DNA of 64,000 bases. Origin: Escherichia coli (GTDB lineage Bacteria; Pseudomonadota; Gammaproteobacteria; Enterobacterales; Enterobacteriaceae). The position numbers are program-made. Shown in pieces: positions 1-3,000 of this stretch (its first letter is position 1; every line of letters starts with the position of its first letter). The stretch is from the NCBI RefSeq assembly GCF_013315695.1, contig NZ_CP054353.1, one strand, 5' to 3'.

Positions 1-3000
1 CGTCCAGTTTTCCTTTGCCGTATGCGCTGTCATGATCCAGGTTGACGTGCGAGTGGGTCACATCGAACGCCAGCGCGCCAAACTGTGCGAGGTCGCGCCC
101 CACCCCCATCGCCGCCGACTGGTAGTGTTCATCTGCCAGCGCGCCACCGTAGAGCGACCAGCCATCTGCCACCCCCCATGACGCTTCTCCACCGGAGAAA
201 AAGCCGCCTTCGGTCCTGTGGTTCCAGTCTTCCGGACGCCCCATCATCACTTTGTAACGCACCTGCCCCTGGCGCGTGAGGAATGGCATAGATGCGGTGG
301 TAACGTCATATTCCTGCACCTGACCATTCTGTTCTTCAACGCGGACGTGCAGTGTGCCGGAGACGGAGTCGCCGATATCCTGAATGCGGAATGGCCCGGC
401 GGGAACCTGGGTTTCGTAAAGTACCCGACCCATCTGGCTAATGGTGACTTTTGCACTGCTGTGCGCCACGCCGGAGACATCCGGCGCATAGCCGCGCAGG
501 TTGGGCGGCAGCATCTGGTCATCGGTGCTGACGCTGCTGCCAATATAGTTAAAGCCGTCGAAAATATCGGAGTTGAGATAATCTTCACCCAGCGACAGCT
601 TGGCTTTTAAAGAGGGTAAGGCCCGCCAGGCGTAATAACGGCTCCAGTCCCAGTTTTTGCTCGTTGTACTGTTACTGCTGTCATCGTCTTCGTCGTCGTT
701 GCTGCGGGTGTGCTGATAATCACTTTGCCAGTCTGCGCGGAAACGCCATGCCCCCAGGTTCGCCCCAACGGTACCGTTGCCGCTGATATCATGTGAGTCC
801 TCGCCACCCTGCTCCTGATGACGAGTTTGCGCATTGAGGCTGTAGTCGGCAATCAGGCCAGGAATACCGTCGTCCCAGCGTGAGGGTGGGTCCCAGTCGC
901 TGCTGGTATATTCGAGGTAAGCCTGTGGCACTGTCAGCAGCAACGCCGACTGGCTTAAATCATTCTCGACTTCCATCCCATCTAATTGCCCCGGTTTAAG
1001 GCATTCATCGTTGTGCGTCCACTGCAGGCTTTTTGCTATCCCTTCTTTCAGCCCCAGCGCCGCCACTAACTCAGGTGTCAGGCAGGCATACGTTTTTGTT
1101 GGATCATTTTCAGAGACGTACCAGTTAATGTCGTATTCATCAGAAAGGGGGTGTTTATTTATAAATACACGTAAATTATATTTACCCGCGTCGACATACC
1201 CTTTTTTTGAAAACTTACCGAGATCAATTTTCGTGTCACCCTTTAACTCAAGAAAACGGGGGTCAAATTGAATGGAATCATCAGCCCATGCATTGACTGA
1301 TCCACCAGAGATTGCCAGCGCAATATAGCAGGCGATTCCCCGCAGCCGAAAATTTGAGTGATTAAGCATACACATATCCGTTTGTGAAACAGTCGTAAAT
1401 CCGTTGCGCGTTGAAAAACCCCACAGCAGAACGCTGTGGGGTTGTCACATCAGAGATAGGTAATCTGGAATGTGGTCAGGGTTTCGAACTGGCCGAGATC
1501 CGGCGCTTCGGTTTCACCCACCAGCCAGGCTTTAAAGTTCAGCGTTTGCTTGTCTTTACCTTTGCTGGTTGAAGCATCCATCACGATTGGCTGAACAATC
1601 TTTTCGCCCACTTTATAACCTTTGCCATGGGTATCGCCGATCACCAGGCTCACATTCTTCATGGCAACACCGCTGTCAACGTTGAATAACGCATAGTTAT
1701 CTGTGTTGGCTGGCCCCGCGTAGTTAGTACCGGTGAACGTGGTCTCCATGTTTGTTTCAGTGGAAAACACGCAGTCCTGTAAACGGATCTGGAAATCTTT
1801 CGGTGTGGTGGTGCCACCGCCGGTCAGTTTAGCCGCACCGATGTCACCCATATCGACTTCCAGTTTGTGATCGTCTGGAACGATAGAGCACGGGGAGTCT
1901 TCAATGGTGCCGTAGAAGCGCGCGGTACCGTTGTTGCCTGCTGCAAATGCAGAACTGGAAACAACTGCGCCCATGACCATCGCCGCAGCAATGGCTGTTT
2001 TGGCAAACTTACTCATTATTTGTCCTTAAATCATTAAGAGTTATAATATAAACACCTGACATAAAATTAATATATATTATGCCCGATATTTATAGTTAGC
2101 CATTGAACATATACACTCCAATATAATCATAGAATGTAAACAAGTATTCTCTGGTGTGTCTGTATGTTGGTCTTATCTATAAAAAAACTCAATTTAGTAA
2201 TACTTAAACACTTTATGTAGATTTTATTAATTAATACATCTACAAAATACTTTCACCACTTTCCAACAAAAAAACATGCGAATTATCAACAAAAAAACAA
2301 ACTATTATAATCAACAAAAATGAATTGCTTATAAAGCACACTAAAAAAAATTATAATAACCTTACCATCATTTATTGCTAAAATTTAATATTAATTAAAT
2401 CAATAAATATATATTCAAGATACAAAACCATTATCTTCTTTATTTTATTACGGGATTCAATAATGGGAAAATATAATAACTATCGAGAGTTGTTAAATAT
2501 TAACAACATTTAGACAAGAAAAAGAATGATTGTATGACGGAGAAACTGCCCGGTGTACGCGCACGTAACCGGGCATTGATTGCTTAAATTGCTTTTGCCA
2601 TCTTCAAATTACAAGGGCTCATTTGCCAGTTGAATTGGCCTTTTCCGCTTTCATCAAGCGTTACGCTGGCAATCGCTGACGTGGTAAACATAGGCGGCGT
2701 TTCGCCCGGACATAACTCGGCAACCAGATACCCGACTAAGGGTAAGTGGGAGATCACCAGTACCGAAGCAACACCTTCATTGGTCAACGCCTGCAAATAG
2801 GCACTGACCAGACCAACATCGCCGCAGGGTGTTAACTCCGGCAGAACTTCTGCACTGGAAGGCAGGTTCAGACAATCCCCTACTTCTTCCAGTGTTTGCT
2901 CGGCTCGCAGGAACGGGCTCACCAGAACGCGTTCGATTTCCACTTTTTGACCTTTCAGCCAGTTCGCCATCAGGCGAGATTCGTCACAACCGTTAGTAGT

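What the first reader, a model, noticed from the sequence alone, without database searches (positions are those of the whole stretch)
2017..2583. Unusually long AT-rich, repeat-containing leader upstream of the yfc fimbrial operon
About 570 bp of strongly AT-biased DNA with A/T tracts and short direct repeats lies between sixA and yfcV, with no credible ORF. This is typical of silenced, horizontally acquired fimbrial promoters and could hold a switch or small-RNA element that the gene list does not explain.
Basis: inference. Interest (0 to 1): 0.2.

Follow-up and report, generated by a model that had tools for sequence, protein, structure and literature searches.

The report
AT-rich silenced yfc fimbrial promoter region
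This is the ordinary, very AT-rich control region in front of the cryptic Yfc fimbrial genes of a uropathogenic-type E. coli, preceded by the terminator hairpin of the upstream gene sixA; the equivalent region in K-12 is already catalogued as bound by the silencing protein H-NS, and no switch, small RNA or hidden gene was found.

Summary
Window 2017-2583 is the 567-bp gap between sixA (2584-3069, -) and yfcV (1450-2016, -). It is 25.7% G+C and is the most AT-rich 500 bp of the 64-kb window. It has no conserved ORF, four A runs of 7-8 bases, and one imperfect 23-nt tandem repeat.

It has two parts. The 29 nt next to sixA (2547-2575) form a G+C-rich hairpin kept by compensatory changes between alleles, most likely the sixA terminator. 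The remaining ~500 bp is the regulatory region of the yfc chaperone-usher operon.

The K-12 counterpart is listed as an H-NS-bound "promoter island" with sigma-70 and sigma-S polymerase binding peaks. In CFT073, a strain assumed (not checked) to carry this allele type, yfcV rises about 36-fold (log2 5.2) when the AT-binding regulator TosR is overproduced.

The switch and small-RNA ideas failed every test:
- Inverted repeats are no longer than chance, and 0 of 1229 genomes carry an inverted form.
- There is no GATC site, no Rfam hit and no internal terminator.

"Horizontally acquired" is not right as stated. Yfc is a core-associated locus and its genes are 48-55% G+C, although the whole operon is a deeply divergent allelic cassette.

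One oddity remains: two invariant, mutually complementary 10-nt blocks 85-140 nt upstream of the start codon, conserved as far as Pseudocitrobacter.

The parts
2017..2583 (-). Whole sixA-yfcV intergenic region (567 bp, 25.7% G+C).
2547..2575 (-). G+C-rich hairpin starting 8 nt after the sixA stop codon, followed by GUUUCU. Most likely the sixA intrinsic terminator.
   Evidence: Folding energy -18.8 kcal/mol, z = -3.2, 0 of 200 shuffles fold as well. The hairpin is kept in all alleles, with two central pairs changed on both sides (G-C to A-U). The U tract is weak, and the consensus terminator scan did not call it.
2031..2546 (-). AT-rich regulatory region of the yfc operon. Inferred to be the platform for H-NS binding and to carry the promoter or promoters.
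   Evidence: Composition. Sigma-70-like sites are about 10 times denser here than the window average, but only about 1.8 times denser than composition-matched shuffles. Literature on the K-12 homologue.
2353..2381 (-). Promoter-like site in the yfcV direction, TTAGCA-17-TATTAT, overlapping a perfect TATAAT (2350-2355). The T8 run (2343-2350) follows it.
   Evidence: Consensus scan only. The T run is T8 in the window, T7 in strain 83972 and T6 in ST131, and 2358 is T in the window but C in the other B2 alleles. No transcription start data.
2442..2496 (-). Two further promoter-like sites in the yfcV direction: TTAACA-17-TATTTT and TTCCCA-16-TAAAAT.
   Evidence: Consensus scan only.
2264..2320 (.). 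Imperfect 23-nt tandem repeat, 2.4 copies. In the yfcV-sense strand the unit is TTTTTTTGTTGATAAT-N7. It gives the T runs a ~25-nt period.
   Evidence: 3 of 300 shuffles reach its score. The 25-nt periodicity has p about 0.004. Two T runs at these positions are kept in all alleles.
2145..2158 (-). Invariant block A: CACACCA-GA-GAATA.
   Evidence: Conserved in all nine E. coli sequences aligned (several deeply divergent allele types). With small variations (CACGCCA in L012, AAATA in L018, CTCACCA in Pseudocitrobacter) it is also kept in two other Escherichia lineages and in Pseudocitrobacter vendiensis.
2100..2109 (-). Invariant block B: TGTTCAATGG. It is the reverse complement of block A (CCAnnGAATA against TATTCaaTGG). 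This allele has a U-G wobble if read as RNA.
   Evidence: Eight pairs, no compensatory change. Stability is unremarkable (z from -0.6 to -1.8).
2045..2052 (-). Conserved TTTATATT about 30 nt upstream of the start codon. A possible proximal -10 element.
   Evidence: No matching -35 was found by eye.
2017..2030 (-). Invariant TTTAAGGACAAATA directly before the yfcV ATG: Shine-Dalgarno sequence (AAGGA) and spacer.
   Evidence: Identical in every allele and species compared.
2279..2287 (.). Target site (CGAATTATC) duplicated by a 768-bp IS1 insertion in strain AF3. It marks the region as an IS1 target.
   Evidence: Other IS1 events in this gap: H4; H71.

Best explanation
The gap is two ordinary things placed end to end.

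(1) A stem-loop at 2547-2575, read on the minus strand, ends the sixA transcript.

(2) The remaining ~500 bp, at about 23% G+C, is the control region of the yfc chaperone-usher fimbrial operon. Its extreme AT content creates many sigma-70/sigma-S promoter-like sites. It is also a preferred substrate for the nucleoid protein H-NS, which coats it and keeps the operon silent under laboratory conditions.

Expression then needs H-NS to be displaced by AT-binding anti-silencers. Overproduced TosR (PapB family) in strain CFT073, and BolA or SdiA perturbation in other strains, raise yfcV mRNA.

An invariant ribosome-binding region (2017-2030) starts translation of the major subunit.

What is shown: the anatomy, the composition and the conservation pattern. 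What is inferred: H-NS occupancy of this B2-type allele, from its composition and from data on the K-12 allele. What is unknown: which promoter is used.
For: Anatomy and composition.

Hairpin: stability and compensatory changes.

All E. coli and E. whittamii alleles examined keep a long (545-683 bp), AT-rich (26-32% G+C) gap even though their sequences have diverged to about 43% identity. The neighbouring sixA stays at 93-100%. This argues that length and AT-richness are maintained.

Only the gap is AT-rich; the yfc genes are 48-55% G+C.

The gap has the highest density of promoter-like sites in the window.

Literature on the K-12 homologue:
- Promoter island with H-NS binding (PMC3661553).
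- Sigma-70 holoenzyme peak with promoter TTGAAA-17-TATAGT, marked HNS (PMC3946193).
- Sigma-S peak (PMC5493296).
- Cryptic chaperone-usher fimbriae repressed by H-NS (PMC3559732, citing Korea et al. 2010).

Expression data:
- yfcV log2 fold change 5.2 on TosR overproduction in CFT073 (PMC5956150).
- BolA overexpression raises yfcV (PMC4337573).
- SdiA studies report yfcV changes.
Against: No H-NS or transcription-start data exist here for the B2-type allele, and the K-12 allele with the data is only about 43% identical.

That CFT073 carries this allele type was assumed, not checked.

The published high-affinity H-NS motif is not enriched: 1 site against about 2 expected. A-tracts are not helically phased.

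Promoter-like sites exceed composition-matched shuffles only mildly: 8 against 4.5 +/- 2.1.

The K-12 in-vitro promoter is not well conserved at the aligned position in this allele.

The hairpin's U tract is weak, and the scan did not call it a terminator.
Confidence: 0.72

Rival explanations
1. The region holds a phase-variation switch. Three types were considered: a fimS-like invertible promoter, a Pap-like Dam/Lrp methylation switch, or slipped-strand length changes in a homopolymer run.
For: Many fimbrial operons are phase-variable. A perfect 10-nt inverted repeat (2069-2078 and 2406-2415) flanks 327 bp, close to the size of fimS. The T run at 2343-2350 differs in length between lineages: T8, T7 and T6.
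Against: - A 10-nt inverted repeat is what chance gives: 159 of 300 shuffles have one at least that long.
- A query with 2079-2405 inverted found 0 of 1229 genomes covering 80% or more of it.
- 1208 of 1229 genomes are colinear with the native order.
- No recombinase gene is adjacent.
- No GATC occurs in any B2-type allele, and GATC sites are not conserved in the others.
- The longest run is 8 nt.
- The roughly 30 ST131-type genomes sampled in the spread listings almost all show the same match length (558 bp) and score; a few rows are 563 bp, which I take to be other lineages. There is no sign of hypervariability within a lineage.
Confidence: 0.03
2. The region encodes an unannotated small RNA or small protein.
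For: 567 bp with no annotation. Promoter-like sites lie on both strands.
Against: - No Rfam match is near threshold: the best is 17.8 bits against a gathering score of 117.
- No terminator-like site lies inside the gap on either strand.
- No ORF of 18 aa or more is shared between alleles or has a ribosome-binding site.
- Sequence conservation is confined to short blocks next to yfcV.
Confidence: 0.05
3. Part of the region is a long structured 5' untranslated leader. yfc would be transcribed from a distal promoter about 330-480 nt upstream. The invariant complementary blocks A (2145-2154) and B (2100-2109) would form a stem that controls mRNA stability or translation. This could hold alongside H-NS silencing.
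For: - The K-12 in-vitro sigma-70 promoter lies 384-412 nt upstream of the ATG.
- The promoter-like sites in the yfcV direction here are also distal.
- Blocks A and B are the most conserved non-RBS sequences, and each is the reverse complement of the other.
- The spacer between them varies in both sequence and length (about 35-44 nt), which suits an RNA stem better than a dimeric protein site.
- The one difference in B2 alleles (TATTC to TGTTC) keeps a U-G pair.
- Every allele's minimum-energy fold contains the stem.
Against: - No pair shows a compensatory double change.
- Folding energies are not unusual: z from -0.6 to -1.8.
- The consensus energy is only -3 kcal/mol.
- My rough estimate is that complementarity between two short conserved blocks has a chance probability of a few percent once offsets are allowed.
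- No transcription start is known, so the blocks may not be transcribed at all.
Confidence: 0.18
4. The gap is functionally neutral spacer DNA, whose AT-richness reflects mutation bias and insertion-sequence scars.
For: - Sequence identity between alleles is very low, about 43%.
- IS1 inserts here repeatedly without obvious cost.
- Promoter-like sites are mostly explained by composition.
Against: - Length (545-683 bp) and AT content (26-32% G+C) are kept across deeply diverged alleles and species.
- Short invariant blocks persist as far as another genus.
- RNA polymerase and H-NS bind the K-12 version.
Confidence: 0.08

Closest known systems
yfcV/sixA 'promoter island' of E. coli K-12 (Panyukov and Ozoline 2013; island 2453647_489)
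   Same: Same chromosomal position, between the same two genes in the same orientation. Long and AT-rich, with many promoter-like sites. It shares the same invariant blocks next to yfcV and the same sixA hairpin position.
   Different: Only about 43% identical. This allele is 113 bp shorter (567 against 680 bp) and even more AT-rich (25.7% against 31.9% G+C). It has no GATC sites. The mapped in-vitro K-12 promoter is not well conserved. PlatProm, which defines the class, could not be run on this allele.
H-NS-silenced promoters of other cryptic chaperone-usher fimbriae (yad, yeh, ybg, sfm, yra; Korea et al. 2010) and of csgD and fimB
   Same: An AT-rich upstream region, cryptic expression in the laboratory, and relief by AT-binding regulators. 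Several of these regions appear in the same H-NS and promoter-island lists.
   Different: There is no dedicated regulator gene in the yfc locus and no divergent partner gene. The gap lies downstream of a co-oriented housekeeping gene, so a terminator is part of it.
fimS invertible element of type 1 fimbriae
   Same: A few hundred base pairs of AT-rich DNA upstream of a major-subunit gene. A 10-nt inverted repeat pair sits at a spacing similar to fimS.
   Different: The repeat is no better than chance. There is no recombinase gene nearby, and no inverted form in 1229 genomes.
pap regulatory region (Dam/Lrp/PapI switch, PapB autoregulation)
   Same: A fimbrial promoter antagonised by H-NS, with a PapB-family protein (TosR) able to raise expression.
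   Different: No GATC pair, no papI- or papB-like genes, and no divergent promoter.

Membership tests
H-NS (xenogeneic-silencer) target region | A+T content well above the genome average over several hundred base pairs | tested here: met
   25.7% G+C against 48.2% for the window. It is the lowest 500-bp value in the 64 kb.
H-NS (xenogeneic-silencer) target region | H-NS occupancy in vivo (ChIP) and derepression in an hns mutant | not testable with these tools
   Reported only for the K-12 allele (PMC3661553, PMC3946193). That allele is about 43% identical to this one.
H-NS (xenogeneic-silencer) target region | High-affinity nucleation motif (TCGATAAATT-like) or phased A-tract curvature | tested here: not met
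   One site with 2 or fewer mismatches, against about 2 in shuffles. No 10-11-bp periodicity beyond chance. This feature is not obligatory for H-NS binding.
Promoter island (Shavkunov, Panyukov, Ozoline) | At least 8 PlatProm-predicted start points in every 100-bp window, sustained over at least 300 bp (definition in PMC3661553) | not testable with these tools
   PlatProm is not available. As a proxy, 8 consensus sigma-70-like sites fall in 567 bp. That is the densest in the window (10 times the mean) but only 1.8 times composition-matched shuffles. The K-12 homologue is a listed member.
Invertible promoter element (fimS type) | Flanking inverted repeats longer than chance | tested here: not met
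   The longest exact inverted repeat is 10 nt. 159 of 300 shuffles have one of 10 nt or more.
Invertible promoter element (fimS type) | Both orientations present among isolates | tested here: not met
   0 of 1229 genomes match the inverted construct over 80% or more of its length. 1208 of 1229 are colinear with the native order.
Invertible promoter element (fimS type) | Site-specific recombinase gene adjacent | tested here: not met
   The flanking genes are sixA and yfcV, and the gap has no ORF. A recombinase acting in trans cannot be excluded from the sequence alone.
Pap-type Dam/Lrp methylation switch | Two GATC sites about 100 bp apart within Lrp sites | tested here: not met
   No GATC in 1900-2700, nor in any B2-type allele.
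Slipped-strand (homopolymer) phase switch | A long homopolymer or short-unit repeat in the promoter spacer or coding region, with length heterogeneity among close relatives | tested here: not met
   The longest run is A8, and it lies outside any promoter spacer. Lengths differ between lineages, but the 558-bp match length and score recur in nearly all ST131-type genomes sampled in the spread listings. Only a sample of genomes was inspected.
Known RNA families (Rfam 15) | Covariance-model score at or above the family's gathering threshold | tested here: not met
   The best match is IS009 at 17.8 bits, against a threshold of 117.
Rho-independent terminator (for 2547-2575) | A stable G+C-rich hairpin directly downstream of a stop codon | tested here: met
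   -18.8 kcal/mol, z = -3.2. Compensatory changes between alleles.
Rho-independent terminator (for 2547-2575) | A run of U immediately after the stem | tested here: inconclusive
   The tail is GUUUCUCC in this allele. The scan, which requires 5 T in 8, did not call it. The O157 allele has a better tail, UUUGUCUUUUU.

The most novel reading that the evidence does not exclude
The two invariant blocks 85-140 nt upstream of the yfcV start codon are CCAnnGAATA (2145-2154) and its reverse complement TRTTCRATGG (2100-2109). They would be a previously undescribed regulatory element of the Yfc fimbrial family: either a 5'-leader RNA stem controlling translation or stability, or paired operator half-sites for an unknown regulator. 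They are kept across E. coli alleles that are otherwise about 43% identical, and in Pseudocitrobacter.
Probability: 0.2. Interest if true: 0.35.

Novelty: already known. Interest (0 to 1): 0.13.

Why it matters
It matters little beyond annotation. The region can be labelled "sixA terminator plus H-NS-type silenced yfc promoter region" and needs no new mechanism.

Two practical points follow.
- The yfcV "uropathogen marker" appears to be one deeply divergent allele of a locus that almost all E. coli carry. Its regulatory region differs from the studied K-12 one by more than half its bases, so K-12 promoter and ChIP data cannot simply be transferred to uropathogens.
- The short invariant blocks next to yfcV give a concrete starting point for anyone who wants to find what turns this cryptic fimbria on.

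Tried and rejected
- **Invertible element:** rejected by the shuffle test of inverted repeats and by a search with an artificially inverted query.
- **Dam/Lrp switch:** rejected, because there is no GATC site.
- **Homopolymer slippage:** rejected, given short runs and recurring match lengths within a lineage.
- **Small RNA:** no Rfam hit and no internal terminator.
- **Small protein:** no conserved ORF or ribosome-binding site.
- **H-NS nucleation motif and A-tract helical phasing:** not enriched, so the H-NS inference rests on composition and on K-12 data.
- **Core promoter:** I tried to place one by eye on the conserved TATAAA and TATATT elements. No matching -35 was conserved, and the TATAAA is lost in two alleles.
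- **Sigma-54, CRP, IHF, RcsB and SlyA consensus sequences:** compared by eye only, with nothing convincing.
- **Published start-site data for yfcV:** attempts to read them failed because the paper is not held.
- **One literature search was mis-specified** and returned nothing useful.
- **Korea et al. 2010,** the primary paper on H-NS repression of yfc, is not in the library. It is cited only through papers that cite it.
- **Peptide-based scan of other genomes:** not run, as too costly for this finding.
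Full report
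**What is there**

Window 2017-2583 lies between two minus-strand ORFs: a 188-aa fimbrial subunit (1450-2016) and a 161-aa protein (2584-3069). The gap is 98.9% identical to the corresponding gap in E. coli strain 83972. There RefSeq annotates the flanks as a fimbrial protein (the yfcV position) and sixA, with nothing between them. Downstream come the usher, the chaperone and four more fimbrial genes; upstream come fadJ, fadI, yfcZ and fadL.

The window therefore comes from a B2/uropathogen-type E. coli. Only 1229-1248 of 5426 complete genomes carry this version of the gap. They include strains 83972, 536, ST95, ST131 and avian pathogenic strains.

**Check of the observation**

- **Composition.** The gap is 567 bp at 25.7% G+C (22.6% for 2017-2520), against 48.2% for the window. 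It contains the lowest-G+C 500 bp of the whole 64 kb.
- **A/T tracts.** There are A7 or A8 runs at 2181, 2268, 2291 and 2343.
- **Repeats.** Tandem Repeats Finder reports one imperfect 23-nt repeat, 2.4 copies, at 2264-2320. Only 3 of 300 dinucleotide shuffles reach its score. The longest exact direct repeat (13 nt) is reached by 10 of 300.
- **ORFs.** The longest is 33 aa with a GTG start. None has a ribosome-binding site, and none is shared between alleles.

The repeats are real but modest.

**Anatomy**

Part 1 is the hairpin next to sixA. The 29 nt at 2547-2575, read on the minus strand, begin 8 nt after the sixA stop codon.
- They fold into a G+C-rich hairpin of -18.8 kcal/mol (z = -3.2; no shuffle of 200 folds as well).
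- Every allele has a hairpin at this position.
- Between alleles the two central pairs change on both sides: CCCGGT/ACCGGG here, CCCAAT/ATTGGG in K-12, CCCGAT/ATCGGG in O157.
- It is therefore a conserved structure, and most likely the sixA terminator.
- Its U tail is weak in this allele (GUUUCU), and the consensus scan did not call it.

Part 2 is everything else, about 500 bp at roughly 23% G+C.
- It has the highest density of sigma-70-like sites in the window: 8 in 567 bp against 1.4 per kb overall.
- This is only 1.8 times what shuffles of the same composition give (4.5 +/- 2.1). The promoter-like sites are largely a by-product of AT-richness.

Part 3 is the 14 nt before the ATG, TTTAAGGACAAATA, which are identical in every sequence compared.

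**Comparison of alleles**

I collected the gap from nine E. coli sequences representing several divergent allele types (window/B2, 83972, ST131, a dog isolate, K-12, two B1-type strains, O157, O145). A DNA-pattern scan added E. coli E69, two other Escherichia lineages, E. whittamii and Pseudocitrobacter vendiensis.

- sixA is 93-100% identical throughout.
- The gap drops to about 43% identity between this allele and K-12, and yfcV to 70%.
- A sliding comparison of 83972 with K-12 shows that the whole operon, from the end of smrB to the sixA stop codon, is a divergent cassette. It is 60-80% identical in the genes and 20-40% in the two end gaps. The flanks are 90-99% identical.
- Despite this, every complete gap examined is long (545-683 bp) and AT-rich (26-32% G+C).
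- The yfc genes of this allele are 48-55% G+C.

Length and AT-richness of the upstream region are thus maintained while its sequence is not. That fits a region whose function depends on composition, such as a nucleoid-protein platform, rather than on a specific sequence.

**Literature**

- In K-12 the yfcV/sixA gap is one of 78 "promoter islands" (2453647_489). It is scored as H-NS-bound in the Kahramanoglou and Oshima data sets (PMC3661553).
- Genomic SELEX found a sigma-70 holoenzyme peak there, with predicted promoter TTGAAA-17-TATAGT. The spacer is marked as overlapping an H-NS site (PMC3946193).
- I located that promoter 384-412 nt upstream of the K-12 ATG.
- A sigma-S holoenzyme peak is also listed (PMC5493296).
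- Wurpel et al. class Yfc as a core-associated fimbria, present at the same locus in almost all E. coli. They note that cryptic chaperone-usher fimbriae are repressed by H-NS, citing Korea et al. 2010 (PMC3559732).
- In CFT073, overproduction of the PapB-family regulator TosR raised yfcV by log2 5.2. TosR is predicted to bind AT-rich DNA and to antagonise H-NS and Lrp (PMC5956150). I did not fetch the CFT073 sequence, so its allele type is assumed.
- BolA overexpression and SdiA perturbation also change yfcV levels.

**Tests of the "switch or small RNA" idea**

- **Invertible element.** The best inverted repeat (10 nt, 2069-2078 and 2406-2415, 327 bp apart) is what chance gives: 159 of 300 shuffles have one at least as long. 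A query with that segment inverted found no genome covering 80% or more of it (0 of 1229). 1208 of 1229 genomes are colinear with the native order. No recombinase gene is adjacent.
- **Methylation switch.** There is no GATC in this or any B2-type allele. GATC sites in other alleles are not conserved.
- **Slippage.** The longest run is 8 nt. Its length differs between lineages (T8, T7, T6). The ST131-type genomes sampled almost all give the same match length and score.
- **Small RNA.** No Rfam match is near threshold, and no terminator-like site lies inside the gap.
- **Small protein.** Nothing is conserved.

All of these readings are rejected.

**What remains unexplained**

Phylogenetic footprinting of the 150 nt next to yfcV shows short invariant blocks in an otherwise unalignable background.
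- Block A is CACACCA-NN-GAATA (2145-2158).
- Block B is T(G/A)TTC(A/G)ATGG (2100-2109).
- A third block, TTTATATT (2045-2052), and the ribosome-binding block are also invariant.
- They are kept as far as Pseudocitrobacter.

Blocks A and B are reverse complements of each other: 8 pairs with a 2x2 internal loop. They are separated by about 35-44 nt that vary in both sequence and length. In B2 alleles the one difference gives a U-G pair. The minimum-energy fold of every allele contains the stem.

Against a structural role, no pair shows a compensatory double change. The folds are not unusually stable either (z from -0.6 to -1.8). Without a mapped start site it is not known whether the blocks are transcribed. 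They could be a leader stem, two protein sites, or a coincidence. I put a real, undescribed regulatory element at about 0.2.

**Verdict**

Its main interpretation, a silenced AT-rich fimbrial promoter region, is supported, chiefly by published data on the K-12 homologue. "Horizontally acquired" is not right as stated, and the switch and small-RNA suggestion is not supported.

This is a known kind of region, and for K-12 an already catalogued one. Interest is low.

Noticed in passing
window 1-2583 (yfc side), compared in L001 2235-9566 against L004: The whole yfc operon, from the end of smrB to the sixA stop codon, is a deeply divergent allelic cassette. It is 60-80% identical between B2 and K-12 types in the genes and 20-40% in the end gaps. 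The boundaries are sharp, and the flanks are 90-99% identical. At least four or five allele types exist in E. coli. This probably explains why 'yfcV' works as a PCR marker for uropathogens even though K-12 also has a yfcV gene (inference).
   Followed up: partly
window 2279-2287; L003 1501-2844; L002 3288-4000; hits H4 and H71: The gap is a recurrent IS1 target. Strain AF3 has a 768-bp IS1 with a 9-bp target duplication (CGAATTATC). Another B2 strain and a K-12-type strain also carry IS1 in the gap. One strain has IS1 together with a deletion of yfcV and the start of the usher gene.
   Followed up: partly
window 9100-11300: Between fadL and mlaA the window carries about 2.5 kb that strain 83972 lacks. 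It comprises an AT-rich stretch (about 29-32% G+C at 9100-9500), an IS1 transposase ORF (9793-10296), and a 222-aa ORF (10626-11294) with no Pfam match.
   Followed up: partly
window 2343-2358: Compared with other B2 alleles, this strain has a C-to-T change at 2358 that turns CATTAT into TATTAT in a promoter-like -10. It also has a longer T run (T8 against T7 or T6) just downstream of a perfect TATAAT. Any effect on expression is unknown.
   Followed up: no
L004 11180-11290 (K-12) against window ~2540: K-12, B1 and O157-type alleles carry roughly 80-110 extra bases directly after the sixA hairpin that B2-type alleles lack. This accounts for most of the length difference, 645-683 bp against 545-567 bp.
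   Followed up: no
L017 (contig JAIJJM010000567.1, 2180 bp): A contig filed under a Collinsella metagenome-assembled genome carries the E. coli B2-type sixA end and a 556-bp, 27% G+C gap before yfcV. This is almost certainly a misbinned E. coli contig.
   Followed up: partly
window 13531-20346: The tRNA-Arg (CCT) gene at 13531-13605 is followed directly by a LysR regulator, a GntP permease and a PLP enzyme (dsdCXA-like), and then by MFS and membrane-fusion efflux genes. No integrated element is visible there, although this tRNA is a prophage site in K-12 (my own knowledge). A low-G+C stretch (38-44%) spans 18-32 kb.
   Followed up: no
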